Under the pieces are notes generated by a model. The model had not been told where the DNA came from. It saw nothing but the letters and a program-made list of their open reading frames with translations, and did not search any database. DNA of 62,843 nucleotides, filler included, from Perkinsus olseni (Eukaryota): the NCBI GenBank assembly GCA_013115125.1. It is 35 parts of 35 records of this genome, joined end to end, with 100 filler letters (N's around TTAATTAATTAA, not from the genome) between each part and the next. Parts side by side here need not be neighbours in the genome. Positions count along the whole stretch, not along the records: positions 29,208 to 30,910 come from JABANN010001778.1; 34 more parts are not named here. One strand, written 5' to 3'. Positions within the stretch are counted from its first letter, which is position 1; the number at the start of each line of letters is the position of its first letter. This document shows positions 1-53,915 of this stretch, piece by piece. Position numbers and translations under genes: made by a program.

Positions 1-1381
1 TCTCTTCCCTTTCGATATTTAATATGAAAATCGAAGCATTGTAACCTGCTCACCCATCTCAGATAGCGGGAATTCGGATCTTTCTGCCGTACCAGCCATA
101 TCAGCGGGTTACAATCAGTAACCGCTGTAAATCTCCTTCCTTGAAGGAAGTATGCCCATTTTCCATCCAGAAAACCAGAGCCAAGATTTCTTTTTCAGTT
201 GCGCTGTAGCGCAGTTCAGCACCACGAAGAGTCCTGCTGCCGTACAGTACCGGGACCTGTTCTTGCAACAGAACAGCTCCTATTCCCGTGCGCGAAGCGT
301 CACACTCCAGCGTGAATTCCTTGTCAAAAGACGGGAGTTGGAGGAACGGTTTACTAGTAAGTCGTTCAACCAATTCGTCATAGGCAGTGTCACACGCCGA
401 ATCCCAAACAAATGGGGTGTCCTTCCTTAGAAGATTGGTGAGAGGAGCTGCTATTGTAGCAAAGCTCTTCACAAATTTCCTATAGAAGTTCACTGTACCA
501 ACAAAACGTTGTAGACTCTTCTTGCACTTTGGCTTTCGCAACTTCATAATCTTCTTGACATTATAAGATGCCGGGGATATCATCCCTTTCGAGATGGTAT
601 GTCCTAGATACTCAAGAGTATCCTGCATCCACTGGCATTTAGTCAGCTTTAAGACCAGATGGGAATTCTGCAATTCTGATAATACCAATTCGATGTCACG
701 CAGGTGCTGTTGTGGGTCCTTACTATAGACGATAACATCGTCTAAGTAGACCAACGAGCATCGGCCCAGACTTTTGACCAATACCACTTGCTCCATACAT
801 CTCTGGAATATCGCGACGGCCGTTTTCAGGCCGAACGGCAATCGAGTGTACTCATACACTCCGATATTCTCAGCGATGAAGGCCGTCTTCTCAATGGCAC
901 TCTTCTCCATTCGGAGCTGGTGATAGCCCATTCGAAGATCTAAAGAGGTGAAGTAACAGGCACCATTAAGGGCCTCTAGAAGGCTATCAATTCGTGGGGG
1001 TCGATACGCATCGTCCCTCAACAATTTGTTGAGAGGTCGATAATCAACCACCATCCGATACTCCCGAGTCCCTCGCTTAGGAATCAGCCATGTTGCCGAA
1101 GCCCATGGTGATGTACTATGTCGCACCACACCGGCCTTTTGAAGTGTCTCAATCTGCTCCTTCATAATCTTCCTCATATGGGGATTCTGACGGAACGGTT
1201 TGGCCTTTACAGGAAGGGATCCTTGCGTATCCAACTCCACTTCAAAATTAGGGACACATCCTAATTCCCCTCGAGTGACATCAGAGTATTTCTCAACCAA
1301 TGCAGTTAGTTGAGCCTGATATTCTTCTGGTACTCCTTTTAGGTCAATCTTATCAGAGTTAGTATTCAGACGCAGGGACAT
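1..1381 (-). mobile_element. pol: Ty3/Gypsy pol: reverse transcriptase + RNase H, with a frameshift near 155 and running off the contig
   Basis: Motifs SPWAS, YRMVVDYRPLN, LDLRMGYHQ, LPFGL, YLDD, LECDAS and YSATEKE; another frame continues KWAYFLQGRRFTAVTD...RWVSRLQCFDFHIKYRKG. Confidence 0.93.
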
Positions 1382-1467
1382 AATGATATTTAATCAATAA
1401 CTAAAGGACATCACTAATTCTTAGTGAAACACAACAACTCAGGATCGCGCAGAAACTTAGTGATTAC

Positions 1468-1840: not shown

Positions 1841-1910
<70 letters not shown>
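1841..1910. repeat. (TAG)n microsatellite at the contig end; also (CAA)n at 2087-2134 and (GTT)n at 3508-3577
   Basis: Read directly from the sequence. Confidence 0.97.
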
Positions 1911-1925
1911 TGAATACAACAATAG

Positions 1926-2086
1926 GTAGAAGTGAGAAATACTCTTATCTTAGCTGCTGGACCCCAGGCAGATAGTTGCCAGTTTTTGGAGTTTATCTCT
2001 CGTAATGTGGAGCTATATAGTTTGGTTAATGGTGTACAACTAACCACTCATGCTTTGGCCAACTTTACAAGGTAGTAGTAGTGCTG

Positions 2087-2135
<49 letters not shown>

Positions 2136-2750
2136 GATGATGATGTTGTTGTTGTTGTGATGCGATTGTATTGGTATTAGGAATGAGTTAGCCGATGCAT
2201 TGAGGAAAGGGCCGTATCAAGTTAATATGTTGATTGGTGGCTTTGATGCTAAAGATGGCAGTAATAATAACTATAACCATCATTACTGTTAGTATTATCA
2301 CATCTCAGGCGCATCCCTGTATTACATGGATTATCTAGCATCATGCCAGAAGATTACCCGCGGTGCTCATGGTTATGCATCGTATTTCGTACTAGGATTA
2401 CTCGATAAACTATACAAAAAGGTAATACTAATACCACCAGCAGCAGGAGGAGCAAGAGTAGGGGAGATCTATAATATCAGGGTATGAGTCAAGAAGAAGG
2501 CCTTGATGCTATTAATCAATGCATTAAGGTAATAACAACAACAAAAACACCTACTACTACTACTACTACTGGGGTCATACTATGATGATGATCATTGTAT
2601 TTTAGGAGTGTAAGAATAGGTTCATCATCGACAAGAGTAACTTTACCGTTAAAGTTGTGGATAAGGTAGTAATGCTTGGTAGGTTATCATTGCTGTCTAC
2701 ACATGCTGGCTTAGGATGGTATCCGTAGCGTTGCATCACCGTCGGAGTAG
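1926..2750 (+). CDS. PSMB2: Proteasome subunit beta type-2 (beta4), 5'-truncated, multi-exon
   Basis: Spliced translation across GT-AG introns: LAAGPQADSCQFLEFISRNVELY...ANFTR/NELADALRKGPYQVNMLIGGFD/SLYYMDYLAS...AHGYASYFVLGLLDKLY/GMSQEEGLDAINQCIK/ECKNRFII...FTVKVVDK/DGIR. Confidence 0.92.
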
Positions 2751-3001
2751 TAGTAGATGAATCTAATGTGATGATGATGATGTGGAGTAGGAACAACAAG
2801 AACAACATTAAAGCGAATAAACCGTTTTCTCAATGATGCCCGTGAAGTTGAGTTGTATCATCATCACACTATCAACCGTCGTGATAAACGAAACAAGTCC
2901 TTGATTCATATGAAAGACGCATATAATGCATGTTTATCATGTTCATCCTGTGGGATTATCCTTCTCACTGAAGTGGTAGGTAGTATTCCCTAACAATAAC
3001 A

Positions 3002-3480
3002 TCACCATTCAACACTCATCATCACCACTACTATTACCAGCATGGTAGGCGATGATGATACAGTTCCCCCCGATACATGAACACCTCCTATACTGTTTAC
3101 TCCTTTATGTACTGTTTTATCGTCATCCACAGTCGTATTAGATATATGTTTATTGATAAAACCTAGAAGTCCGGGTACACTCCTCTCACCATCATACCTG
3201 ATCATACGTCATCATCATACAACAACAGCGCAATAATAGAGTATGGGTGCTGCTGCTACTACTACTTCCAAGTATGTAATACCGTTCCATTCTCATCTCC
3301 TGATACATGATACAGTCTTATGTCAGGGAATGCATTAATATGTTCCATCTTACATAAGGTATTATCCTTACCTACCAAGTAGTAGTAGTAGTACTAAATG
3401 CTACATTCACTTAAGTCTACTCCCGCCTTACCAACTTTCCAATTATCACCATAACATTCCCTCTGTACCCAGTGAACTAC
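3002..3480 (-). CDS. 3' end of a thioredoxin/PDI-like protein, multi-exon, convergent with PSMB2
   Basis: IRYDGERSVPGLLGFINKH resembles the thioredoxin-domain C-terminal Y.G.R...L..F+ motif; upstream exons not resolved. Confidence 0.5.
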
Positions 3481-3508
3481 TTTAGGATGCTGCTGCTGAT
3501 GCTGGTCG

Positions 3509-3576
<68 letters not shown>

Positions 3577-3727
3577 GNNNNNNNNNNNNNNNNNNNNNNN
3601 NNNNNNNNNNNNNNNNNNNNNTTAATTAATTAANNNNNNNNNNNNNNNNNNNNNNNNNNNNNNNNNNNNNNNNNNNNAGTAGAAGGTATCTGCATCAGAT
3701 CCGGGAGTGTTACGTTATTGAGTCATC

Positions 3728-5514: not shown

Positions 5515-7125
5515 GAAGGCTGGGATGCTGTGGATGATGAGTTGAATATTGTTGATCCCGCTCTCGTACCAGAATGTGCCGTTGCCGACACTTATTCTTG
5601 GTATCCTGAGTTTAAGAAACGGGTTCTATTGGCTCAATCAGGGGATTCATTCTGTGTGCATGTGACTACTCAGTTACGATCGCATCCTGAGTGTTCCCTT
5701 GCTAGGTCATTTTCCGTGGATTCTTCCATGGGATTGCTGCTTTCGCGGCAGTTCCGCTCTGATGGTGAGGATGACCATGTACCTGTGATTCCATCTGGAG
5801 AACTACAAGACGAGTTGATTGAAAAGGTGCATCTTGGCTATAATCATCCCGGTATATCGAGAATGGTGAGACTAGTGAGGCAGATGGGATGGTTCAAAGG
5901 GTTGTACTGTGCTATTAAACGGTTTGTCTTACAGTGTGCTGTCTGTGCGCAAGCCAAGGAAGGCAAAATGTTATCGAAGGCACTAAGTACTGTGAAGAAT
6001 TTTATTCCTATGATTTGGGGTGTAGTTGGATTGGATTTGTTTGGTCCACTACGGTTACAAAATGGCACTAAATGCTGGGTGCTTATTGCGGTCTGTTATA
6101 TAAGTCGCCTGGTCGCGGTGAGGGTAATTGACTCCCCATCGGCGGCTAGTGCGGTGGCTGGATTTATAGAGATTGTTGGTCAAGAAGGAGTCCCGAAGTT
6201 GGTCGTACATGATCAAGGACTATGTTTCATGTCAGCTACATTTAAGGAGATTTTGGCTCAGTATAACGTTGGGCAAGCATACACTAATTCTTACGATGCT
6301 GCACAGCGCGGTTGGATAGAACGCTGCCATGCTGAATTTGGTGCCTTATTGCGAACCTATCAGTTGGAGGCTGAGAAGAGGATGCAGGACATGAATGATG
6401 CTCGACGGTGGTGTAGCATGGCCGCCTTTACGATGAACTGCTTACCGTACTCTGACTCTGATGATACCAGGTTATGCCCGTGGACATGTTGTAGAGCATC
6501 TCGAGGCATCAAAGAACATCTACTTGGTGATGAAGCTGCTACGGTAGAACAGATACAAGAGTGGTTGGGAAGTGGTCTATTGTTTCAAGACCTGACCGAT
6601 AATGTTAAGCAGGTTACCGATGACTGCAAGGAAGAATGGGCCAGATCGTTGGAGCACTTAAAGGAGCTCTGGTTAGAACGACGAGCAGAGATACGTCGCA
6701 AATTGAGTCGACGTAGACGCCCTCATAATGACCAACTTAAAGAAGGTGACACCGTCTGGAAGAGGAACTTCGCTGCGGACAAGTTGAACGCCTTGTTTAC
6801 TGGTCCCTATACGGTGGTCAAGATTGTTGGAGGCAACGTGACGATTGAAGACTCCGATAAGAAGACTTCTACTGCTACTATAGATCAGCTGAAGAAAGGC
6901 TTGCCGAGTTCGAGGCGCAAGATAAAGACTACTCCAGCTACTAAGACGGTTGCTACTCAAGTCGAGAAGGATGCCTTGGAACCTCAGTTAGATGAAGAAG
7001 ATCTCCGAAGATGGAGAGATGTCGTTACTGGACAGACTACAGTGCTAACTAGAAGTCGTAAGCGATTGCTCGAGAAGGTCGACAACGCCATGAACAAGTC
7101 GAAGGCTCCTAGGAAAGGAGACTAA
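5515..7125 (+). mobile_element. LTR-retrotransposon integrase (HHCC zinc domain, DDE core, GPY module)
   Basis: H..YNHPG...CAVC; GLDLFGP, HDQG, GWIER; FTGPY. Confidence 0.9.
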
Positions 7126-7167
7126 TTTAGTTGCGAATATCAGCGCGTTGAGAGCCGTGAGATCACA

Positions 7168-7250
7168 GGCTGAGGGAGTGTGATGATATTCAAGATTTTA
7201 CTATAGTGAAGTAGATTCAATGATCATAGAATAATGATGGTCATACCACT
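7168..7250 (+). mobile_element. Polypurine tract and start of the 3' LTR (TG at about 7179)
   Basis: GAGGGAG immediately followed by TGTGATG, about 50 nt after the integrase stop. Confidence 0.55.
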
Positions 7251-20133: not shown

Positions 20134-20652
20134 AGCTCAAGCTACCCTTCGACGCTCCCTCTGACCAGCACTCTATCCTCGGCATCCTATCTGATGTAGC
20201 ACAGTCACTCATGGCCTCTACTGAGTTTCGTAAGTCATCAACGGAACCCAACCGTGGCCAGCGGCGGGATGACATGAGAGACCGCATCTCCAAGCTCAGC
20301 GACTCCACTCCCAACAACTCCAGGAACAGTCCATCCGGCGCAATTACCGAGGCTCGCCGTCTCCACAAGGAGGCTAATGACTGGGCACGAAAGCAGAACT
20401 TCGTCGTTATCATCATGGGCAAAGCTCTGCGCTCGTCTACCACCACCGACCCCGGGTTCTGCAACGCCCTCTGACGTACGATTCCTGGTCTCTCGTCAGG
20501 GTAAGCGGTACGGGCTCCTAGCCTTCGACTCGAAGGCTGACGCCGAGAAAACCATATCCGAGTACTTCTCCAACAAGGACTCCTACTCACTGGTCAAGCC
20601 TTACGACCCTGACTTCAAGTCAAAAAACGACTATGGGCGTCGCAGTCAGTAG
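20134..20652 (+). mobile_element. gag: gag C-terminus with one internal frameshift, homologous to the gag at 52479-53915
   Basis: Shared motifs LPFD..S(I/V), DR(I/V)..(L/V)SD, W.....V.(I/V).G and terminal SKN. Confidence 0.7.
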
Positions 20653-20688
20653 GCGACTGTCGATTGCCCTTAATCTCTACGCCTACTC
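20622..20688 (+). promoter_or_regulatory. -1 programmed ribosomal frameshift signal: A_AAA_AAC plus an H-type pseudoknot
   Basis: Heptamer 20622-20628 is in gag phase; the -1 frame is open into pol; stem CAGTC/GACTG whose loop AGTAGGC pairs with GCCTACT at 20681-20687. Confidence 0.8.
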
Positions 20689-21853
20689 TTACTGTTGCTC
20701 CACCTGAGCCTGACGTCGGGCCGAGGCCTGACCACTTGTCACATGCCCTGACCGACGACCTTGTTGCTGCTGTCGGTGATGGGCAACATCTCCCTGAGAT
20801 CTCTCTCAGTCTGAGACTCTCTCAATCCTCTTCCTCGGAGACCTATGGTGAGTCAGACGACTTGAAAGTCCGAGGAGTACTTGACACCGGTGCTACCAGC
20901 TCCTACATCGTAGTACCGCCAACACTTTCTCTCTCATTTCAGACAGACCCCCTCCCTCAAGCGGTGGCAGTGACCTTAGCTAATGGCAGTCTGGTCAGCA
21001 TCAGCACAAGTATCTCGTGCTCAATCACAGTTCGGGATGTTCGCTCTGGTGAGTATTTCGAAGCGGGTCATCACCGTTTCCGTGTACTCAGCTGCCATGA
21101 ACGACTCCACCGACCCTATTGTCTCCTTGGTAGAGACTTGATTAAGGCTTGGAGTCTCGTCTGTGTTGGCCTCGACTCTGTTACCTTATCCGGTCGGCTG
21201 GTGTATGAAGCTACTCCTACAAGCTCACAACCACAGGACCCCACCTCGCTTGCCACTCTCTACCTGGTGGATGATGCTGATCCTAAGTTGATGGTACCAC
21301 TCCCTCGTGCAGGGGCTCCCACTGATCCCCCTACCCGACTATGCAGTCAGGACAAGAACATTGCCCACGACGTGCTCCAGGCGCTGGCTTCCAAAGGATG
21401 GCGTGATCTCCCCCTGTCGAATGGTTATCGCTGTCGTATCCGTAGACTGTGCCCGGCTGAGCATCTAGACTCGCCACATCAAACACATGTTGGTGAACTC
21501 TTCTTACCGGCATCAACGCCATCGACAAGGCCCACACTCAGAAACTTCGCCACTCCTCTCTTCAAGCGTTTGTCTCCTGACCTCAAGGTAGCCTACAACT
21601 CGATGGTCCAAGATTATGTTGTCAAGAAGTGGTGGGTGCCGGCTCCCTCGGTTACTTCAACTCCGAGTCCCGCACCTGCTGCTAATGTCTTTCTCATCAA
21701 CGGCTCTAAGCGGCCGAGACTCGTCTGCGATCTCCGAGCATGCAATGCATCTTTACCTCGGGCAAGCTCACGAAATCCGGACCTTTGGAAAGTCCTCTCG
21801 ATCATCCGCTTGACCGGTCCGTCAATCATTGTGGGCGCCGATATATCCTCGGC
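20628..21853 (+). mobile_element. pol: pol: aspartic protease and start of a BEL/Pao-like RT
   Basis: VLDTGATSSY, LLGRDLI, RPRLVCDLR, GADISS. Confidence 0.8.
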
Positions 21854-29107: not shown

Positions 29108-29279
29108 NNNNNNNNNNNNNNNNNNNNNNNNNNNNNNNNNNNNNNNNNNNNTTAATTAATTAANNNNNNNNNNNNNNNNNNNNNNNNNNNNNNNNNNNNN
29201 NNNNNNNCATAAGTCCTATAGAAGGCAAGGTTGTGTTCAACAATCCTAGTGGTGCTTTCTATCACAATCATCCGAGAAG

Positions 29280-30910
29280 ATGTCAGGGCGATCTCCTAAG
29301 GCTGATGCTTCTCAGACTTCTGAGGCTAATGCCCCTCCAGTTTGGGCCTTCCAGCTTAAGCAACAGCTGGATGAGATTCGTCAGCGACAAGATGGTATGG
29401 TTGACGTTGATGTCTTGGAGAAGAGAATGGATCAGCTTTCTACTACAGTTGGTAGTCTGGTTAACAAGTTGGATGGTATTGGACTGCATGGTCAAAGTGT
29501 TGATGGTAGTAATGGTATTTCTTCTGGTACTGGAGCCTCGAGTAGTCCAACGAGTGCTGGTAAAGGTGATCATTCTCCAAAAGGCGGTAGTGCTGATGCG
29601 GGTGGACTTGATATTCTCAAGATTTCTAAAAGGGCTTCTAATTTGGCTAAGCTCGAAAAAGGTGTCTACAAAGGTGTTGGTGATTCTCGTGGGTTTTTGG
29701 CCTTTAAACGAGAGGTGTTATCTAAACCGGAATTTGAGTTTGCGGACTCTAGTTCTGAGACCTCTGCTGCTCTGTTGTATTTCTATGTCCTCGATAATAT
29801 CACTTCGGCATTACAACAGTTGGTCAGCACACGTTGCCGTAAGCAGCAGTGCTCATCGTTTGTGCGGCGCGTTGAGGTATTATGGTCATGCCTTGGTGAG
29901 TACAGCGACTTGGATGACCAAATGGCTCTCCTTAGAAGATGGGAGGGTCTTAGTTGTGGCACTGGTGGTGCTGCTGATGTCGATGTTTTTATATCCAATC
30001 TGGAAGCTGTCAAAGAACAATTGGAAACTGTCAAGGGCAGCTCCGTTTCGGACGTGGAGTGCCGCTCAAGACTATATGCCGGGTTGCCTCTCAAAGGTAA
30101 GGAGTATTTGGATTCCTTATCGTTGGATTCTGTTTCCACCTATACTGATATGTTGAAGGAGGTACGGCGTTGGGCTCAGTTGGATATTAGATATCATTCG
30201 TCGTCGTCATCGACTACCCGAACTGTCACTAGTAAGGTTCCTTTTAAGACCACTGCTGGTAAGAATGGTGACAAAGGTTCGGCTAAGACTACTGTTCCTA
30301 AGACTGCTCAATATGCTGAATTGTATAATGCGGAACCGGTGACTGGTAATGGTGGTCTCACTACGGCAACTGACGGCGATAAGGTGTTGAATGGTGGTCG
30401 GTCAGTTTTCTTATCTGGCGTACCCCGTGGTTGGTCATGGGCTCAGGTTAAGGAACTAGTGAGCAAAATACTTGGCACAAGTGTCGAAGTTTTTGTTACA
30501 CTTCTTTCTCGTCCTGGTGCTTCAGTGTTGAAATTCAGTGATCATAATACTGCTGTCAAGTTTTTGGACTCTTGCCAGGGTTTACGACTGAATGGTCGTC
30601 AGCTTAGATGTCACTTTGATAAATATGAGCGACCTTCTGAGGACCCGTCTGTCTATGTATTGGAAAGGGATCCTTCTGTGGTTGACGCTACTACTGATGA
30701 TGGGACTTCATCGGATAGCGGTGAGTTAGAATGTCATGCGACTGTGCTTCAGTCTGTTGGTGTTGATCGGTTGAACCCTCGTGATGAGAAGTTATGCTCT
30801 CCTGGTCAGGAGCCGAGCTTACACGCTCAGTCGTTGACATTATCTGAGAGTGGGCTCCCTCATCTAGCTGTCTCGTTGGGACGGACTGGTTATGGCACGG
30901 AGGCCTTGGT
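29280..30910 (+). mobile_element. gag: LTR-retrotransposon gag with an RRM, in frame with the start of a protease
   Basis: N-terminal coiled coil, gag-like core (DVDVFISNLEAVKEQL...LYAGLP), RRM at about 30399-30620, ending in LPHLAVSL...EAL, the typical lead-in to DTG/DSG. Confidence 0.7.
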
Positions 30911-31360
30911 NNNNNNNNNNNNNNNNNNNNNNNNNNNNNNNNNNNNNNNNNNNNTTAATTAATTAANNNNNNNNNNNNNNNNNNNNNNNNNNNNNNNNNN
31001 NNNNNNNNNNCCCTAGTGGTTGTCTTGGTTAGGTATCAAGTGGCTGGAGGAAGGGCAGCGGAAGTCCCTGGAACTCCGTAAGAGAGTTTTTGACGGATCG
31101 TAAAGGCCGTGGACTACTCTTACAGATACAGTCGACCGGGGCCCGACGCCCTGTGCGAGGTGTCTCCGATGCCGCTGCAGGGTGCAGGGAGCAGCCCTGG
31201 AAGATGAAGTTGGGAAGCAGGAGGCTGCGAGTGATGGGAGTAAGTCCTACACCCTTAGTTTTCCTCTGGCGAATCCTCGGTCGTTCCATTACTATATTAC
31301 ACTGTTAGAATGATACAAGCATGTATTCTCTAATATTCGCTACGAAGGTGTATATTCCTC

Positions 31361-32641
31361 ATGGGCTGCGTCCTCAGTATCCCAGTCTTTACCTCAGATG
31401 GAAGCCGGAAGAGGAGCCCAGAGATCCGTGACCTGGAAGGCCGTGACCGACAGCAAGGGCGAAGCTTTCTGTACCAATGCTCGAGGTCGAGTGCTGGCAG
31501 CTATGGGGGCGTGGACAAACAGGCTCTTTCCACTGCCATAATCGAAGCCAACGAGGCTCTGGGAAAGACCTTGACCTACTTCTCGATATTTTGCGACCAA
31601 AACGACATTTACTTCGTGTTGAAGTACGAGACTCCGACCAGATGGAAGCAGCTTGCCGATACCCTCCGCAACGAGTACGGCATCTCCACCTCGGTCAGCT
31701 GTGCCATACCCAGGCCAGGGTACAGGACCTGTATGTACCCCGTGTTGTTCTCCTACTGCCTCGAATTGGACCCCAACCCCTACCTATCCCCCAATCACCC
31801 CCACCCCAGCAGCCTCCTCGGGGACGGAGAGAGGCAGGGCTCGAGGGCCAGACGGACTCCAGCTTTGGACGGGGGTGGTCTGCCGGCACTCCCACCTTCA
31901 AGAGGCGCTGAGGAAGAGGGCAATGTCCCTAATGGCGGCGGAGCTCCCGCTGTGAAGCCGGGGGAAGGTTCCCAGTCGATCCTTGATGAGTCTGCGGGCT
32001 GTGTAGAAGGAAGCCCATTGGATAAAGTGGAAGAATGTTTGGAGAGGGGGTGCATTTGTCGCCGCCCCGCCCTGTGGCTGGAGCGGATATCGTCTTTAGT
32101 TGTGCGGAATCTTGGGGACGAGGGAGCGAAGCAGCTGAGAGAGGATATTCGGCAGAACTTGGAACAGGGCCGCTCAAAGGAGACTAATGTGGTTATCTAC
32201 GGTGTGGCCTCCAGTGGCAAGTCCGCCATCCTGCGGCCTCTGACTCACATCTTGAAGTGCGCTAAAATCTCCGAGGCTGAGGGGATCTCCCTTGAAGATT
32301 TACTCGACTGTGAGTGCATCTTGTGGAGTCACTTCTGCGTGGAAGATTTGGGCGACAACTTCGATATGACGACGTTACTCGAACTCCTCGATGGCCGCCC
32401 GGTTAAGATGAACTGCGACCAGGGGAATAGTGGCTCTTTTTTCGACAAGTTGGTGCCGATTTTCCTGACGTGTGATGCGTTCCCTGCCCCCTTAGAAGTT
32501 GAGGGCGGACAGGCCTTACACGAGAGGCTTCAGCGGTGTCACTACTTTCCGTACAAGATGGTGCCCGAGGAGCGGGGGAAGCCGTTCTTATCTTGCAACC
32601 GGTGCTTTGCTGAGTGGCTCTTTGCTGATACACTAGCTTGA
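31361..32641 (+). CDS. CRESS/parvovirus-type Rep-like protein (degenerate HUH domain + SF3 helicase)
   Basis: Walker A GVASSGKS, Walker B-like ILWSHF, B' LLELLDG.PV, motif C PIFLTCD, arginine-finger region ALHERL, terminal CxxC; N-terminal FLYQCS / IYFVL / RW..L...GI / YC. Confidence 0.72.
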   Translation: MGCVLSIPVFTSDGSRKRSPEIRDLEGRDRQQGRSFLYQCSRSSAGSYGGVDKQALSTAIIEANEALGKTLTYFSIFCDQNDIYFVLKYETPTRWKQLADTLRNEYGISTSVSCAIPRPGYRTCMYPVLFSYCLELDPNPYLSPNHPHPSSLLGDGERQGSRARRTPALDGGGLPALPPSRGAEEEGNVPNGGGAPAVKPGEGSQSILDESAGCVEGSPLDKVEECLERGCICRRPALWLERISSLVVRNLGDEGAKQLREDIRQNLEQGRSKETNVVIYGVASSGKSAILRPLTHILKCAKISEAEGISLEDLLDCECILWSHFCVEDLGDNFDMTTLLELLDGRPVKMNCDQGNSGSFFDKLVPIFLTCDAFPAPLEVEGGQALHERLQRCHYFPYKMVPEERGKPFLSCNRCFAEWLFADTLA

Positions 32642-32813: not shown

Positions 32814-34513
32814 GTCGCGGAGAGAGTAATATCGCTTGTTGTGGGCGAACTGACATTGATCACAAGAACGGCAGACCTCAATGGCAAGCTTCCTCAAGCC
32901 CTTGACGAAGAATGCCCTGGAGAAGATCCATCGAACATACCTCGCGTTGAGACACCCTGAGTCGTTGTGATATGACCGTAGCAACCTCCTAGCATAGTCG
33001 ATACCATCCTGAGAATCAGAGGGAACATAGAAGCAGAGACGTGAAGAGCTGTTCCATGTGTTCGAACGACAACGTCGCATGAGCACACCGTCTCCCGCAA
33101 GCACGAACTCTAAGTCGTTGGGCTCCGAAGCACCGTCTGCCCCCCTGATCCTGTCGATGATGGCCGATACCTCCGGCGAGCCACGCTGAAGGTCCAATAA
33201 CCTTTTTCGATCCGGTTGACCGGCCCCGACGCGGAGATCGTCGGGAACGCGTGGAGCATGATCCTCGGAGATGGCAAAAATGACCGCCGACACCGTGTCG
33301 AGCTCACCGGCCTCATCCGCAACAGTGGACTGCGAGCCCGAGCCCGCGAGAGCTTGAGATGGCAAGGGGGTGATGACCTTGCGCGCCGTGTTTGCCGCGC
33401 CCTTGGACCCCTTGAACCGACCATCGAAGATGACGACCTGAGGAATATTCCAGGAATGTGCCAAACGGCTGAGAATATCAGCTTGAGAGTTCTGCTCGGC
33501 CGGGAAATGTTCCACTACCGGATGGATATCATAACGTCGTGCCCAAACCTCCTTAAGGTCTGCCACTGCATCACACAGCCTGGAGATTGCAATCCGTTCG
33601 ATCGAGCGACTGGTCATCCTCTCACCGCCCCGCATCCAGGAGAGGGCAGTCCGAGAGTCAGTCAGGAACCGTACCGTGAGACCATTGCAGTATGGTATCA
33701 GAGCGTCACAGAAGACGAAGGACAGACCGAGGCAGTATGCTTCTTGACGGTTCTGGTGCCACGACACTTGGCTGCCGCGCCAGCACTTGGCCTTGCCGCA
33801 CAGAGCAACCTGCCCCCCTGAGGCAGTACCGATGGAGAGACAGAAGCCCATACCGTATGGGGAGGCGTCGGTGGTGATAGTGAGTGTGGTGCCCGAGAAA
33901 GCGATGTCATGCTGACAGAGCTCATTACGTTCGGCCAACCGAGAACAGGCGATGGTGATTGTCTGAGCATCCTCCTCGCTGATCGCAACCTTCTCGTCCC
34001 AAGAGGTAGGCGACCATTTCCCCGACGCACGTCTTATCAGATCAGCCGCTAGCGACCCCTCGGGATGGAGGCCTAACACATCGTAGCCAGCACCTGCCCA
34101 CCGAAAGGCTTCACGCTTGCTGACGAGGTCCCCGGCCGACAGTTTCCTAGGAGAGAGCGATGAAGGAAGACACTGCAGACGAATGGTCCGTCCACCCTCG
34201 CACCGGACGCATAGGAACCGAACTCCTAGGTGACGAAAGTCGTCGAAGTCATCACAGAAGCCGTCGCTACCGAAGAAGACCCAATGGGTCTTACGCTCCG
34301 AGAAGGTGAAGCCCCAGGCCGCACCGGTCGCGATGATGGCGGAATAAAGGCTCTTGACTGCCACCACCTCTCCAAGCAATGTGATATCATCAACATAGGC
34401 CCAACAGTAGAGTGGCGGTTTGTGATCGTCCAACTGGCTGTGCTCGACCTTCGCCACCGCGGCGGTGAGCAACCCCGACATGGCTTCCTCAAGGATGGCT
34501 GGTCCTGCCCGAT
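32814..34513 (-). mobile_element. pol: BEL/Pao-like pol: RT, RNase H and start of the integrase zinc domain
   Basis: AYVDD, YDVLGL, TTDASPYG, NRQE, LTDS, ADILSR, H...G...CDQC. Confidence 0.85.
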
Positions 34514-45341: not shown

Positions 45342-47010
45342 ATTGTGTGCCCAAACAATCACACCCGTTCACGCCAGGTGCTTGATCTGGAGGACTCGAC
45401 CTTGGAGAACCTTTTGCCCAAGACACGGAGTGGCGGAATGGCGACGCGATCTTCGGGAAGGTCGAAGATCTCACCGAGGTTGGGGATGCAGTTGAATACA
45501 GCCTTGGAGTAGGACGAAAACTCGTTCGCATCACCGGGGACCTCAAAGACTTTGAAGATGATGGCGCCATAGCTGTAGTGGTTGGCGTCTACCATAGCGA
45601 GAGTGCCGTCGTTACTCCGTCGTTACCAAGGAAACATGGTAGAGTGCCAGCCAGATAGGCACGGAGTAGGAGTTTAAAGGCATCCGAGATAGCTGTGGTG
45701 AGTGTCTCGAGGAACTCCGTGGTTGTAGAGTCATCCTGGTAGTGCTTGATGGCTTGGTTCAACACTTGGAGAGCACTGATGGCGTTGGGGAGAAGGTGCC
45801 CCGAGAGAAAGTTGAAGACCCCGGTCCAGCTCCTCAGCCACGAGAGACTATTTTGACGGAGTGCTTCAGTGGTCTGCTTGGGACGTCGATGATCTCGTCG
45901 CTTGGAAGGGGCCTTGCCGTTGAGGAAATCGTTGAAGGCAGTGTTGAAGGTAGCTTCAGTGATTTCTCGCTTGTCAGGTAGGGGTCGGTTGGTTTGGCCG
46001 TGTAGCAGTGGGCCACAGAATGTCGTCGATCTCGCCGGTGGCTGGAACTTCTGCGGGTTGATGATGAAGCCGTGGTCGACGATAACGTCGGTGAGCACCT
46101 TTAATGCCTTCTCACCGTCAAGGACGGTGTGTGAAGAGACCAGAATGTCATCTTGCACGTGGAGGACAGTGGCAGCAATACCCTCGGCGGCCAGCTTGGG
46201 GAAGATGGTAGTGTCGAGTAAGGTAGTAAGACCTACTTGAAACGCCAGTGATGACCATCGCCAGCGTTGGGGTAGGGAGGTAAGCGCCCAGCGGACAGAG
46301 ATTCCGGTGCGTGGGCAGATGGATGTAGTGCCAAAGAGCTTCTGTAGAGGGTAGTCGACCGCTATTAAGCCGAAGGCATCACGAAGGTCTAACTTGAACC
46401 AAAAGCCGAGATTGGCAGATGGAACACCCTTCAACAAGTTGTTGGCTGTCCGTTGGTGTTGCTTGTAGGAGAACTCATCACGCTGCTTACTGTCCTTGAG
46501 GATCTCACCGCCAGGCACGAACATGAAGTTGCCGGAGTCATCAAAGGTCAACTGCAATGAGTTGAGGGGTCTGGTGTCGATAACCAGGCGATACCGAGAG
46601 GAGAGTTCGGTATCACTAACAGGGACCGTTCTCAGTTGACTCTTTCCATCAGCACGGTCGAGCTTGTCGATTAGTATGGGCTTGCAGACGATGGGAAGGT
46701 CAGAGTCTTAGACTCGACGAACCTTGCAGTGCGCTTCCATAGCGCAAAGCTTCTGGTGGCTGATCTCACCATCCACTCGTGTGCGCTTGCGCTGGGCAGT
46801 GCGGTATGGCCAGACAGTAACATTGCCAACGGGGTCGATGTCACAGCGAAGCCGTTTGATAGGGCCGTCCTGGACTATGGAGATAAGCGGCTGGACATCA
46901 GTAGAGGCACGATGACAAGTGGCTGCCGGCTCGGCACAGGGTGTCAAGAGACCTTGAATGGTAGAGTCAGTGGTGGCATACGCAGTGGAGGGCATAGAGT
47001 CCTCGGTCGA
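45342..47010 (-). pseudogene. Divergent RT (VQDD) + RNase H with an in-frame stop at 46708-46710 and a frameshift near 45595
   Basis: YRLVIDTRPLN, KLDLRDAF, LPQRWRWS, HVQDDILV, FCG, then VDAN..YGA. Confidence 0.8.
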
Positions 47011-50643: not shown

Positions 50644-52307
50644 CCCCAAAAATGGTTACGGTGTATCGAATACTACTAGCTACGGCTTGTCTGATACCAC
50701 CGTGGCCAACTACGACGACGATGACTCGGGCGACGAAGAAGACCAACTATGTGACGAAGACAATCTGCCTCCGTGGGAAGCACTACGACGCGAGTGGGCT
50801 TATGATGAGACTACCCCACTCGGAAGACCGGTCGTACGTGCCTCGTGGAAGGACTCTAGTAGACCACCAATGAACTACCGTCAAGCAGCCGCTCGTGGTG
50901 CTCGGTCTACTAAACGACTGACGACTGCTCAAGTCGAAGCCTTTCAACAAGCTCTGAAGACCTATCTCGATCGTGGGTTCTGTACTATAGTGCAGAACAA
51001 CGCCCTGGACAACTACAATAAGGGTCCTTCTTTTGACCAATGTCAGCAAGCTTGGGATAGGCTCACTAAGGGCACTCACTACGAGGGTACTACGGTAATG
51101 AAGCCCAAGCACTATACCCCTGCACACACGGTATTTAGGGATAATCACCCTACTACCCCGTGCAGAATTGTGCTCGACTACAGAGTACTGAACAAGTACC
51201 TACTACGTGGCGGCCGAACTCAGAACGACTTACAAGGCACCCTACTACAACTGAGAGGCTTTCGCTACTTCGTGGCTTCCGATATAAGTAAGGCCTTCTG
51301 TCAAATGAAGGCTTCCCTCTACGACTTGGCCTACACCAACTACACTTGTATTGGTGACTACACTGTTCTCTGGAGCAGTGTGTCCTTCGGTACGACTAGT
51401 GCCCCTAACTTTCTTGAATGTTGTACTCACGATGTCACGGAGGAAGCAGAAGCACTACAGGGTGTCGGTGCCAGTCTTACTATGAGTCCACTAATCGACC
51501 CCCACTTGTATAATGACGAAGACTTGGAGAAGGTTCTACTACTACCCTCTCCAGAGGCCTTCGACTACATTCGCCTTGGGCCTCATATTCCCAAGGAGCT
51601 GGTACTACTCAAATACGTGGATGACTTGTTCAACGGCGGTGATACCCCCGAGATAGCCACTCAGGCTAACGACTTCTCACTACATCTTCTAGGTGGACAC
51701 GGATTCAAGGTGGATGCGATCAAGAATTTGAGATCGTGGTCCCAAACAACTACAGAAGATACTAGTGCCAAGTCTCTACTAGGGTACCACTACCGTGGTG
51801 AGCTTCTTTCCGTGGTCTACTCTGGCTCTCTACCTGGTCGAGTGACTACTAAACGTGAAGCTTGTTCGGCACTAGCTTCTCTCTATGACCCACTTGGGAT
51901 TTTCATAGAGTATGACCTGAAGGGTAGACTAATATGGAGACGTATCTGTGAGAACTACAAGTCGTGGTCCGACCCTATTGATACTAACGTGGCCAACGAC
52001 CTCGGCGACTGGGTGAAGGAGTGTCAAGCCGTCACTACCCAGGGAGTCCCTCGGCATGTCAATGTCCGAGAACAGCCACTACTAGTCTGTACGGATGCGT
52101 CTACTGACCTCTGGGGCGTAGACATACGCTGTACAGACAATACGACGATCTCCACTAGACTACTCAGTCGTGGTGGTGTGTTCCCGAAGGGCCAGACGGC
52201 GTGGACTATCCCTCGCAAGGAGCTAGTCGCTCTCTACAAAGGCCTTCAACTACTCAGGATGATGTCGCCCTACCTTCCTGTGCCAACCTACTATAAGCCC
52301 TACCTAG
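50644..52307 (+). mobile_element. pol: BEL/Pao-like RT + RNase H
   Basis: HTVFR....TTPCRIVLD, SDISKAF, FGTTSAP, KYVDD, TKRE..S.LASLYDPLG, CTDAS, TIPRKEL. Confidence 0.92.
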
Positions 52308-52478: not shown

Positions 52479-53915
52479 ATGGCGACACCTTCCGACGAAC
52501 TCCAAGCGGCAAGAAGCCAAATCCGTCAATCCAAGCGTGCACTCCGTGACACTCGTGAGAAGTTGAAGAACATCCTCGACGACGAGACCGACGACACCAA
52601 GAAGATTATCAATGACCTTCAGGTTAAAGAAGTCAACCTGACCAAGTGCATCGAGGAACTCGAGTCCCGCATCGCTGAACTCGAGCTGTCCATCGACAAC
52701 GAGCGTTCACAGATCGCTCGACAAGAAGGCCGGTCGAGAGTTGCGCTTCCGACATCGCCAACAGCTGAGAAGCAGAACAAGCATGCCATTTCATTATTCA
52801 TGTCCGCCAGCGAGCATGAGCAAGACGACAAACGTGACGACGACATCGACAACCACGAGACTCCCTCGAAGATACTCTCGTCCGCCTCCTCCGACCAGCT
52901 TACCGCGGCTGACCTTGGCGCTCTCTCGGTACCGTCGCTTCAGACTCCGTCATGCATTGGTGCCCATCTATGCTTGCTGGAACAGCTCTTCCAGGAGGCC
53001 GGTGCTGGTACGATCAGCTCTGGTGTGTTCATACCTCATGGACATCTGCGCATCACTGTGTACAACAAACTGCTCGAGAGCGTCCAGTCCTGCGAGTTGG
53101 TATCGAGTGTCATTCACGACATCGCCCAGAACAGCGAGTACAAATGGTCCGTGATCAAGGCTGAACTACAGCAGGAGTTTGCCCGTCGAGACCTTCTCAA
53201 AGCCGAGTACAACGCGGTCATGAGGTCTCTCTCCTTCTCTGGCCTTGGCACCGTGGAAACCTTCTTACGGAAGGCCCTGGCTGCCTTTCGTATGTACCGT
53301 ACTGTGTACGGTTCTGACCGGGCTGAACTGCGGTCCATGACTAGATCCGTGGTCATGAAACTGCCAGAGAAGCTCCGGATATGTGTGGTTCAGAGTCTGC
53401 AGAGTGAGAAGGTTGGTAGTGGTGACTGGGAACTTGCCTTGCCGTTTGATGATACCAGTGGTCGTCCGTCTGTGATCTCTGTCATCAGATCTAACTGTCG
53501 TACCTTCCGAGATGCTGGTGTCTCTCTCGACAGTCATCACGGTTCCAACAACAACAGCAACCATAACCACAGCAACGGCAAAGGCTACCACAACTCTACC
53601 GACCGAGTAGCTCAAGTATCTGACGGTAAAGGTGGTCGTGGCGAGTCTCTCTCCAAATGGGCTGGCCGCTTCGCGGCTGTATTTGTCGTTACTGGTCCCG
53701 GAGTCGCAGGCTCTCCCGAGAATCACGTCCAGTACGACGATGCTCGACACTACCCCCGGAAAGATGGTAACGGCGTCATCTGGTTTCTGGCCTATAAGGA
53801 TGAGGAGAATGGTTCCAAGATCATCGGCGACCTCTCCAGTGACCAGTTCGAGACCAGAAGGTTCGAGTTCCGTACCAGACGCCTCACGTCTACCCCGGCA
53901 CCGTCAAAAAACTAA
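52479..53915 (+). mobile_element. gag: Complete gag (coiled coil, capsid-like core, possible RRM-like C-terminus) ending at a slippery site
   Basis: Intronless ORF homologous to the gag at 20134-20652, which precedes a protease/RT; the -1 frame is open from 53912 to the contig end. Confidence 0.72.

What the first reader, a model, noticed from the sequence alone, without database searches (positions are those of the whole stretch)
29280..30910. Gag with an RRM where the CCHC nucleocapsid knuckle should be
Seen: RSVFLSGVPRGWSWAQVKELVS...ASVLKFSDHNTAVKFLDSCQGLRLNGRQLRCHFD is a clear RRM pattern between the gag core and the protease lead-in, and there is no CCHC motif. The gags at 20134-20652 and 52479-53915 also lack a knuckle and end in weaker RRM-like segments (YGLLAFDSKADAEKTI; IWFLAYKDEENGSKII). 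Established: RRMs are typical of LINE ORF1p, while LTR-element Gag uses CCHC knuckles. Inference: a lineage of protease-bearing retroelements may have replaced its nucleocapsid with an RRM.
Basis: partly seen in the sequence, partly recalled or inferred. Interest (0 to 1): 0.78.

Follow-up and report, generated by a model that had tools for sequence, protein, structure and literature searches.

The report
Retroelement Gag carrying an RRM
A retrovirus-like jumping gene of the shellfish parasite Perkinsus carries an ordinary cellular-type RNA-binding domain (RRM) exactly where its close relatives and most such elements carry zinc knuckles, which offers a natural swap for studying how these elements grip their RNA.

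Summary
The main observation holds. Window 29280-30908 (+) is a 543-codon ORF with no zinc knuckle. It runs off the end of a 1703-base Perkinsus olseni contig.

- **Window structure:** the window is 35 unrelated short contigs glued by N44-TTAATTAATTAA-N44 spacers, so neighbouring "pol" pieces are not linked to this ORF.
- **Gag core:** residues 109-309 model as an all-helical domain. Its 10 best PDB matches are all retroelement capsids, but the E-values are modest.
- **RRM:** residues 373-449 form a beta-alpha-beta-beta-alpha-beta RRM. This is supported by Pfam (domain alone above the cut-off), a family profile (hnRNP M, E 2e-5), a six-RRM protein (E 5.7e-15) and Foldseek.
- **Link to pol:** this is shown in relatives. 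One P. marinus protein reads gag-RRM-protease-RT in a single ORF. The window contig stops one or two residues before the protease motif.
- **Knuckle relatives:** two Perkinsus proteins with the same capsid core carry CCHC knuckles at the RRM's position.

The swap is therefore real. Its direction and the RRM's function as a nucleocapsid are inferred, not shown. The RRM-like tails claimed for the other two gags are not supported. Vertebrate metaviruses with an N-terminal RRM-like domain plus a nucleocapsid are already published, so I rate this a new variant of a known kind.

The parts
29208..30910 (.). Piece 17: a stand-alone 1703-base contig of Perkinsus olseni, bounded on both sides by N44-TTAATTAATTAA-N44 spacers (29108-29207 and 30911-31010).
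   Evidence: spacer map. (P0002 is 100% identical, sits on a 1703-base contig, and NCBI names it as a P. olseni hypothetical protein).
29280..30908 (+). Gag-(Pro) ORF of 543 codons. It starts at an ATG and is open at the contig's 3' end.
29337..29477 (+). N-terminal helical region (aa 20-66, two helices). It follows the conserved 'PPxWAxxLK' motif.
   Evidence: helices 21-37 and 43-66, block-mean pLDDT about 58-68. (motif conserved in the relatives that have an N-terminus).
29604..30206 (+). Capsid-like all-helical core (aa 109-309).
   Evidence: mean pLDDT 84.0. (ranks 1-10 are all retroelement capsids: dArc1 E 0.018, Copia 0.03, Ty3 0.056, PNMA2 0.082; PEG10 CTD TM 0.79). (retroviral Gag, tungrovirus coat protein, metavirus ORF1).
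30207..30395 (+). Basic, low-confidence linker (aa 310-372, pI 9.46).
30396..30626 (+). RRM domain (aa 373-449, pI 10.03), ending in a 'FDKYE' tail. It occupies the nucleocapsid position.
30627..30839 (+). Acidic, disordered spacer (aa 450-520, pI 4.19).
30840..30908 (+). Protease lead-in (aa 521-543). It aligns to the residues just before the DTG/DSG motif of relatives, and the contig ends before the motif itself.
30459..30752 (+). The 294-base stretch that the public gene model (P0002) treats as an intron. It is in frame, has GT..AG ends and no stop, and encodes aa 394-491, which is most of the RRM.
   Evidence: Relatives keep the region as coding sequence.

Best explanation
Piece 17 is the 5' part of a retrovirus-like retrotransposon of Perkinsus olseni.

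**Architecture.** Its single ORF encodes, in order:
- an N-terminal helical region;
- a capsid-fold Gag core;
- a basic linker;
- one basic RRM;
- an acidic spacer;
- the start of an aspartic protease.

The RRM sits where relatives with the same capsid core have two CCHC zinc knuckles.

**Shown.** The architecture, the fold predictions, the absence of CCHC, the homology of the capsid cores, and the presence of the form in three Perkinsus species and in several near-identical copies.

**Inferred.**
- The RRM was taken from a cellular multi-RRM protein of the hnRNP-M-like 'W..LK...FDKF' type.
- The RRM replaced the knuckles.
- Because it hangs from the C-terminus of the capsid domain, the RRM faces the particle interior. 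Together with the basic linker it binds and packages the element's RNA, doing the nucleocapsid's job.
- The acidic spacer and the protease then follow as in other Gag-Pro-Pol polyproteins.
For: **RRM**
- Pfam RRM_1 matches the full profile. The domain alone scores 23.0 bits against a cut-off of 20.7. Relatives P0007 (20.8 bits) and P0019 (23.0 bits) also pass.
- The family profile hits 32 of 32 PDB sequences through the same stretch, with hnRNP M best at E 2e-5.
- The AF2 model is beta-alpha-beta-beta-alpha-beta over residues 375-446, with block-mean pLDDT about 71-88.
- Foldseek gives RRM structures at probability 1.00, with TM up to 0.81 and rmsd 1.9 A over 72 columns.
- A profile built from nine cellular RRMs alone finds the domain at 95.5% probability, E 1.5e-8.
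- BLASTP matches five repeats of the six-RRM protein P0011 at E 2e-6 to 9e-5.

**Capsid fold:**

**Link to pol**
- P0022 (1295 aa) carries RRM_1, Asp_protease_2 (24.9 bits against a cut-off of 24.3) and RVT_1 (E 1.5e-9) in this order.
- P0008 and P0015 run from the RRM into the D(T/S)GA motif.

**Swap**
- P0010 has 2 CCHC motifs and P0012 has 1, at the aligned position. The 17 other family proteins examined have none, including P0022.
- The CCHC pair is separated from the other six rows with 100/100 support.

**Spread**
- All nine gag relatives found are from Perkinsus: P. olseni, P. chesapeaki and P. marinus.
- Ten P. marinus gene models on ten contigs are 90-100% identical to P0022. Four have a full RRM and one a partial RRM.

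**Nucleocapsid-like charge:** the linker plus RRM has pI 9.5-10.0 in 4 of 4 subfamilies and is followed by a stretch of pI 4.05-4.25.

**Conservation:** RRM identity to P0001 is 46%, 35% and 25% in the three other subfamilies, against 50%, 38% and 45-49% for the capsid core.

**Interior position of C-terminal extensions:** in PNMA2 capsids the N-terminus is outside and the last ordered residues are inside (PMC10945824, passages read).
Against: - RNA binding is untested. The aromatic residue at RNP1 position 3 is replaced by A, C, T or V in 4 of 4 element subfamilies, although the RNP2 aromatic is kept in 4 of 4. RRMs that lack these aromatics can serve protein contacts instead (from general knowledge, not from a call).
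- The capsid-fold matches are modest. No PDB or BFVD hit reaches E<=0.001, and whole-domain TM scores are 0.29-0.46. No capsid is found by sequence.
- The window's own contig ends before the protease motif and holds no RT. No LTR, primer-binding site or integrase of this family was seen anywhere.
- The tree is unrooted, so the direction of the swap is not shown.
- The public gene model splices out most of the RRM, and I had no transcript data to settle that.
- The RRM is somewhat less conserved than the capsid core.
Confidence: 0.78

Rival explanations
1. The domain has the RRM fold but is not the RNA-packaging module. The flanking basic linker does the nucleocapsid's work, as the basic tracts of knuckle-less Gags do. 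The RRM would then serve another purpose, such as protein-protein contact, host-factor recruitment or regulation.
For: The RNP1 position-3 aromatic is lost in 4 of 4 subfamilies, and the beta2-beta3 loop is 3 residues shorter than in the cellular RRMs. The linker before the RRM is itself basic, with pI 9.46-10.0. The N-terminal RRM-like domain of PNMA2 sits on the capsid exterior, and its function is unknown (PMC10945824 passages; PMC11011659 section 10).
Against: The domain is basic (pI 9.5-10.0) in all four subfamilies, and the RNP2 aromatic is kept in 4 of 4. It sits exactly where the knuckles sit in the sister group. No other recognisable nucleic-acid-binding domain is present in the 1295-aa P0022.
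Confidence: 0.17
2. The public gene model is right. Bases 30459-30752 are an intron, so the mature protein lacks most of the RRM, and the RRM-like reading is an unexpressed relic.
For: The stretch has GT..AG ends, and NCBI's model P0002 removes it.
Against: The stretch is 294 bases long, in frame and free of stops. It encodes a domain that folds confidently. It is kept as coding sequence in the models of three other subfamilies and conserved at 25-46% identity.
Confidence: 0.03
3. It is not a mobile element but a host gene: a domesticated Gag fused to an RRM, or a chimeric assembly or annotation artefact.
For: The window contig holds no RT and no LTR. The contig is short and unplaced.
Against: The same order continues into protease and RT in one ORF in P. 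marinus. There are many near-identical copies on separate contigs. Four diverged subfamilies in three species keep the same order.
Confidence: 0.02

Closest known systems
Gag of Ty3/gypsy-type (Metaviridae) and other LTR retroelements: CA followed by a CCHC nucleocapsid, then PR-RT
   Same: The Gag core has the capsid fold. The order is Gag, then protease, then RT, in one polyprotein. Sister Perkinsus elements with the same core do carry CCHC knuckles.
   Different: There is no CCHC anywhere. A single RRM occupies the nucleocapsid position. The superfamily is undetermined: no integrase or LTR was seen, and the RT has only weak PDB matches, to FIV and foamy-virus RT at E 0.0013-0.0053.
RBD-CA-NC metaviruses of reptiles, amphibians and fish, and the mammalian PNMA genes derived from them (PMC11011659 section 10; PMC10945824 passages)
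   Same: A Gag of an LTR-type element carries a domain with an RRM-like fold.
   Different: In those elements the domain is N-terminal to CA and lies on the capsid exterior. It was recognised by structure only, and it coexists with a zinc-finger NC. Here the RRM is C-terminal to CA, replaces the knuckles, and is recognisable by sequence as Pfam RRM_1.
ORF1p of non-LTR retrotransposons (LINE-1 type: coiled coil, RRM, CTD; modular RRM/CCHC/PHD types in the Jockey superfamily, PMC4120745 abstract)
   Same: An RRM serves as the element's own RNA-binding module. RRM and CCHC modules are exchanged between related elements. There is an N-terminal helical stretch before the folded domains.
   Different: ORF1p has no capsid fold and is not followed by a protease (general knowledge; PMC3905857 abstract start says non-LTR elements lack Gag homologues). 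Here the RRM is attached to a capsid domain and a protease. The RRM's nearest relatives are cellular multi-RRM proteins, not ORF1p.
Knuckle-less Gags that use basic tracts instead (foamy-virus GR boxes, Ty1 C-terminal basic region)
   Same: Loss of CCHC, with another basic nucleic-acid-binding segment at the same place.
   Different: Those segments are disordered basic tracts, whereas here it is a folded RRM. This comparison is recalled from general knowledge and was not checked in a call.

Membership tests
Retroelement (Ortervirales-type) Gag | Two-lobed all-helical capsid (CA) fold | tested here: met
   The AF2 core model has pLDDT 84.0. Foldseek PDB ranks 1-10 are all retroelement capsids, with probability 0.47-1.00 and E 0.018-0.31. 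Single-lobe matches have TM 0.59-0.79. No hit reaches E<=0.001, so support is moderate.
Retroelement (Ortervirales-type) Gag | CCHC zinc-knuckle nucleocapsid after CA | tested here: not met
   The regex finds none in P0001, or in any frame of piece 17, or in the 1295-aa P0022. Knuckles are present in sister proteins P0010 and P0012. This feature is common but not universal in the family.
Retroelement (Ortervirales-type) Gag | Followed by aspartic protease and reverse transcriptase | tested here: met
   Met in relatives: P0022 has PR at 641-728 and RT at 876-1016, and P0008 and P0015 reach the D(S/T)GA motif. On the window contig only the lead-in is present, because the contig ends there.
LTR retrotransposon | Long terminal repeats, primer-binding site, integrase | not testable with these tools
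   The contig is 1703 bases with only 72 bases upstream of the ATG. Eukaryotic genome contigs could not be fetched. No integrase Pfam match was found in P0022 at E<=0.1, and its gene model looks spliced.
RRM (Pfam PF00076, RRM_1) | Score at or above Pfam's gathering cut-off | tested here: met
   The domain alone scores 23.0 bits against 20.7. The whole protein scores 18.5 bits, below the cut-off. Relatives P0007 (20.8) and P0019 (23.0) pass, while P0004 (18.0) and P0022 (18.8) do not.
RRM (Pfam PF00076, RRM_1) | beta1-alpha1-beta2-beta3-alpha2-beta4 topology | tested here: met
   In the model, strands are 375-379, 404-408, 414-419 and 443-446, and helices are 387-398 and 422-432. Foldseek matches RRMs at probability 1.00.
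RRM (Pfam PF00076, RRM_1) | Aromatic residues of RNP2 and RNP1 that stack on RNA bases | tested here: inconclusive
   The RNP2 aromatic is kept in 4 of 4 element subfamilies, and the RNP1 position-3 aromatic is lost in 4 of 4. The RNP numbering is recalled, not taken from a call.
LINE ORF1p (type II, coiled coil-RRM-CTD) | No capsid domain; encoded upstream of an endonuclease/RT ORF2 without a protease | tested here: not met
   A capsid fold is present, and a protease follows.
RBD-CA-NC metaviruses / PNMA | RRM-like domain N-terminal to CA, with NC retained | tested here: not met
   The region N-terminal to CA is helical or disordered. The RRM is C-terminal to CA, and no NC knuckle exists. The definition is taken from PMC11011659 section 10.

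The most novel reading that the evidence does not exclude
A clade of Perkinsus retrovirus-like elements captured a host RRM and uses it as a folded nucleocapsid substitute, in place of the ancestral zinc knuckles. This converges on the RNA-handling solution of LINE ORF1p while keeping a capsid. Because sister elements in the same genomes keep the knuckles on a homologous capsid, the pair would be a natural swap experiment. It could show what a nucleocapsid minimally has to do: packaging, primer annealing and chaperoning.
Probability: 0.5. Interest if true: 0.72.

Novelty: new variant of a known kind. Interest (0 to 1): 0.6.

Why it matters
Nucleocapsid function in retroviruses and LTR elements is almost always studied through CCHC knuckles or disordered basic tracts.

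A natural lineage in which a folded, host-type RRM sits at that position would show that the RNA-binding module of a capsid-forming Gag is exchangeable, much as in LINE ORF1 proteins. Knuckle-bearing sisters share the same capsid core in the same genus, and this gives a matched pair for biochemical comparison.

The finding also corrects annotation. The public model of this gene splices out most of the RRM, and the family's members are filed as 'hypothetical' or merely 'RRM domain-containing' proteins.

Eight full-text searches found no paper describing an RRM at the nucleocapsid position of an LTR-type Gag. Subscription journals, Repbase and paper supplements were not searched.

Tried and rejected
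- **Linkage within the window.** Rejected. The 'pol' on 32814-34513 and all other neighbours are separate contigs.
- **Kinship of the three window gags.** tblastn gave no cross-hits at E<0.01. hhalign of the family profile against piece 30 and the piece 12 tail gave probabilities of 0.3% and 0.7%.
- **RRM in the piece 30 tail.** Pfam gave nothing at E<=10. The cellular-RRM profile gave 0.3%. The Atlas on residues 390-479 gave no usable hit (after two unanswered tries). The Atlas on the whole protein gave only gag-like leads at 0.83-0.85, below the 0.9 level that counts.
- **RRM in piece 12.** There is a half-domain signal only. I read frame A into frame B with X at each of the possible junctions, and this never extended the match, which stayed at about 6 bits.
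- **Word-index protein searches.** The 'longer' search found nothing. The profile search with A2 re-found only P0002 and P0003. Both are weak negatives by the tool's own statement.
- **Other searches.** NCBIfam gave no family for P0001 or P0022. A sequence search for capsids in the PDB gave none.
- **Self-association of the capsid core.** Complex prediction with two copies gave no verdict.
- **RT superfamily placement.** Only weak PDB RT matches were found. No reference RT set was on hand, so no RT phylogeny was made.
- **Not used or closed.** The family's presence outside annotated Perkinsus proteins is therefore unchecked beyond.
Full report
**What the window is**

The 62,843 bases are not one locus. 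They hold 68 runs of exactly 44 N, which pair up around 34 copies of the 12-mer TTAATTAATTAA. These spacers split the window into 35 pieces of 1740, 1737, 1737 ... 1649 bases, in strictly falling order of length. This is a concatenation of short unplaced contigs joined by a six-frame stop spacer.

The finding lies wholly in piece 17 (29208-30910, 1703 bases, GC 0.468). A word-index protein search identified its source. P0002, 'hypothetical protein FOL46_002429, partial [Perkinsus olseni]', is 100% identical to the ORF and sits on a 1703-base contig. Nothing outside 29208-30910 is therefore linked to the ORF. That includes the RT/RNase H/integrase ORF on 32814-34513, which Pfam matches only weakly.

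**The observation**

Frame +1 from ATG 29280 is open for 543 codons to the contig end. The quoted residues are there, at aa 374-447. No CCHC-type motif exists in any of the six frames of pieces 12, 17 or 30. No strict CCHC occurs in any of the 760 window ORFs of 40 aa or more.

**Is the RRM real?**

- **Pfam.** RRM_1 matches its full profile (1-70 of 70) at aa 376-443. The score is 18.5 bits in the context of the whole protein, below the 20.7 cut-off. It is 23.0 bits, E 7.1e-5, when the 92-residue domain is scanned alone.
- **PDB by sequence.** phmmer gave six weak hits (E 0.37-0.84), all on aa 369-454. A profile of 12 family members raised this to 32 hits, all through the same stretch. The best were hnRNP M (2dgv, E 2e-5), TIA-1 (8.1e-5) and hnRNP M (2dh9, 1.1e-4).
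- **Exhaustive search.** phmmer over 1.84 billion representative proteins returned 11 hits. Nine are gag relatives. Two are multi-RRM proteins, P0011 (E 5.7e-15, five matched stretches) and P0013 (4.9e-4). Pfam scores P0011's RRMs at E 1e-102.
- **Pairwise comparison.** The window RRM matches five of P0011's repeats at E 2e-6 to 9e-5, with 22-30% identity.
- **Independent profile.** A profile built from the nine cellular RRMs alone finds the window domain at 95.5% probability, E 1.5e-8, over 78 columns.
- **Structure.** AlphaFold2 with the 12-row alignment gave a poor overall model (pLDDT 59.8). Even so, residues 375-446 form a confident beta-alpha-beta-beta-alpha-beta unit with block-mean pLDDT about 71-88. 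Foldseek matched that model to RRM structures at probability 1.00. The best was TM 0.81 and rmsd 1.9 A over 72 columns (6e4p_B), and 4 matches reached E<=0.001.

The RRM is real.

**Is the front part a Gag?**

Sequence methods say nothing here: there are no capsid hits, apart from a weak copia-type gag hit in relative P0004 (E 0.021).

Residues 105-315 were folded with a 10-row alignment. This gave an all-helical model with pLDDT 84.0. Its Foldseek PDB ranks 1-10 are all retroelement capsids:
- dArc1, three rows, E 0.018-0.18;
- Drosophila Copia, E 0.03;
- Ty3, two rows, E 0.056-0.075;
- PNMA2, two rows;
- PEG10 CA C-terminal domain, TM 0.79;
- BLV capsid.

MLV, HIV, HTLV-1 and Ty1 CA follow further down, interspersed with a few unrelated helical proteins at low probability. 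The viral library gave retroviral Gag, tungrovirus coat protein and a fungal metavirus ORF1.

No match reaches E<=0.001, and whole-model TM scores are 0.29-0.46. I therefore call the capsid fold moderately well supported, not proven.

**Link to pol**

The window contig ends too early to show the link itself. Its last residues, '...SGLPHLAVSLGRTGYGTEAL', align with '...NGLPTVAVSLQGRVTTVALLDTGATD' of relatives. The contig therefore stops one or two residues before the protease catalytic motif.

Relatives show what follows:
- P0008 (P. chesapeaki) runs from the gag C-terminus through the RRM to 'LLDSGATD'.
- P0015 and P0022 (P. marinus) hold the gag core, the RRM and a protease. P0022 (1295 aa) continues into an RT with YVDD. 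Its Pfam matches are RRM_1, Asp_protease_2 (24.9 bits, above the cut-off) and RVT_1 (E 1.5e-9), in that order.

No integrase or LTR of this family was seen. P0022's gene model looks spliced near its end.

**The swap**

In the 12-protein alignment the capsid core is conserved throughout. Identity to P0001 is 80, 50, 42, 49, 49, 38, 32, 32 and 45%.

Six members carry the RRM between the conserved 'RRWAQ..Y' end of the core and the protease lead-in: P0001, P0004, P0007, P0008, P0015 and P0022.

Two members carry CCHC knuckles at the same place. P0010 has CWRCAMKGHRAFEC and CSRCGSYDHLLAQC. P0012 has one.

The other four are cut off before this position. None of the 17 non-knuckle family proteins examined has a CCHC motif.

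I built a maximum-likelihood tree of the core from 8 rows. P0015 was dropped as a near-duplicate, and P0007, P0008 and P0009 because they cover fewer than 110 core residues. The tree separates the knuckle pair from the other six with 100/100 support. It is unrooted, so the view that knuckles are ancestral rests on their wide occurrence in LTR elements (general knowledge).

**Spread and activity**

- All nine gag relatives are Perkinsus proteins. P. chesapeaki has five, P. marinus two and P. olseni two.
- RRM-bearing forms occur in all three species, in four subfamilies with 25-46% RRM identity.
- In P. marinus, ten gene models on ten contigs are 90-100% identical to parts of P0022. Four of them hold a full RRM and one a partial RRM. 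That is what a recently amplified element looks like.
- UniRef already labels P0022 an 'RRM domain-containing protein'. The domain has therefore been detected automatically but, as far as I could find, not interpreted.

**How it probably works**

The pre-RRM linker and the RRM are basic in 4 of 4 subfamilies (pI 9.46-10.03). The 70 residues after the RRM are acidic (pI 4.05-4.25).

Compared with the cellular RRMs, the element RRMs keep several features:
- the RNP2 aromatic, in 4 of 4;
- the tryptophan at the start of helix 1;
- the 'NG..GR' turn;
- the unusual 'FDK(F/Y)' tail.

They lack the RNP1 position-3 aromatic (A, C, T or V instead), and their beta2-beta3 loop is three residues shorter.

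In solved PNMA2 capsids the N-terminus is outside and the C-terminal end is inside (PMC10945824, passages). By analogy, a domain hanging from the CA C-terminus should face the interior, where a nucleocapsid sits.

My best reading is that the linker plus RRM is the element's RNA-binding and packaging module. The loss of the RNP1 aromatic keeps open the rival reading, in which the linker binds RNA and the RRM does something else.

**The public gene model**

P0002 removes 30459-30752 as an intron (294 bases, GT..AG). This deletes aa 394-491, which is most of the RRM. The stretch is in frame and free of stops. It folds as part of the domain and is coding sequence in the models of the other subfamilies. 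I therefore take the intron to be an annotation artefact, but I had no transcript data to check this.

**The other two gags**

Both lack knuckles, but neither is detectably related to the piece 17 family.

Piece 30 (52479-53912, ending in a stop) gets only sub-threshold gag-like leads from the Atlas, at 0.83-0.85. Its tail shows no RRM signal by Pfam, by profile or by the Atlas.

Piece 12 does join a gag tail to a protease (LDTGATSS) and an RT start, by a shift to the -1 frame at 20613-20652. Its tail gives only a half-domain signal: RRM_Thc1 at E 0.13, and hhalign at 19% over 37 columns. Reading through the upstream frame break does not extend it.

Neither tail was folded. The claim that they are weaker RRMs is not supported.

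**Comparison with what is known**

RRMs are a standard module of LINE ORF1 proteins. RRM, CCHC and PHD modules are shuffled among Jockey-superfamily ORF1s (PMC4120745, abstract). Those proteins have no capsid domain (PMC3905857, abstract start seen in a listing).

For LTR-type elements, Henriques et al. 2024 describe an N-terminal putative RNA-binding domain of about 100 residues with RRM-like structure (PMC11011659, section 10 read in full). It occurs in PNMA genes and in active reptile, amphibian and fish metaviruses with an RBD-CA-NC architecture. The PNMA2 capsid paper places that domain on the outside of the capsid (PMC10945824, passages).

An RRM-like fold in a metaviral Gag is therefore known. 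The Perkinsus case differs in three ways:
- position: after CA, at the nucleocapsid site;
- the knuckles are lost;
- it has clear sequence kinship to canonical cellular RRMs.

Eight full-text searches found no description of this arrangement. Subscription journals, Repbase and supplements were not covered.

**Verdict**

The extension to the two other gags does not.
- It is a new variant of a known kind, and I score interest at 0.6.
- The architecture is well supported.
- The capsid fold is moderately supported.
- Nucleocapsid function and the direction of the swap are inferences.

Noticed in passing
whole window; spacers e.g. 29108-29207 and 30911-31010: The window is 35 contigs of 1740 to 1649 bases, sorted by falling length. 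They are joined by 34 identical N44-TTAATTAATTAA-N44 spacers, so adjacency in the window carries no biological meaning.
   Followed up: yes
window 20134-21853 (piece 12): A different retroelement fragment. A gag tail in one frame (20278-20652) overlaps a -1 frame ORF (20613 onward) that encodes an aspartic protease (LDTGATSS; Asp_protease_2 E 0.0014) and the start of an RT. Upstream, a second frame change at about 20440-20474 breaks the gag.
   Followed up: partly
window 52479-53915 (piece 30): A complete 478-codon ORF with an N-terminal coiled-coil-like region, no knuckle and no Pfam family. Atlas feature hits to gag families (Retrotrans_gag, DUF1759, PNMA, spumavirus Gag) score only 0.83-0.85, which makes them leads and not evidence.
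   Followed up: partly
window 104-1393 (-), 32814-34511 (-), 45592-46707 (-), 50644-52307, 5515-7250: Other retroelement pol fragments sit on separate contigs. Piece 1 has a strong RT plus RNase H (RVT_1 E 2.7e-32). Piece 19 has weak RT tail, RNase H and integrase zinc-domain matches. Piece 26 has a weak RT match. Pieces 29 and 4 are hit by P0022's RT and C-terminal regions in tblastn (E 2.3e-15 and 1.3e-10).
   Followed up: partly
P0022 and P0015 (Perkinsus marinus proteins), residues about 520-620: The acidic spacer between the RRM and the protease holds about eight tandem copies of a 12-residue unit (SKSFESNIENFE). This expansion is absent from the window's element.
   Followed up: no
window 30459-30752: The public gene model for this contig treats an in-frame, stop-free 294-base stretch as an intron, removing most of the RRM. 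This is probably an annotation artefact.
   Followed up: partly
window 1841-3577 (piece 2): This contig starts with (AGT)n and ends with (GTT)n trinucleotide runs. It has the lowest GC of the 35 pieces, at 0.387.
   Followed up: no
window 31334-32638 (+), piece 18: A 435-codon open frame with no Pfam family at E<=0.001. It was not examined further.
   Followed up: no
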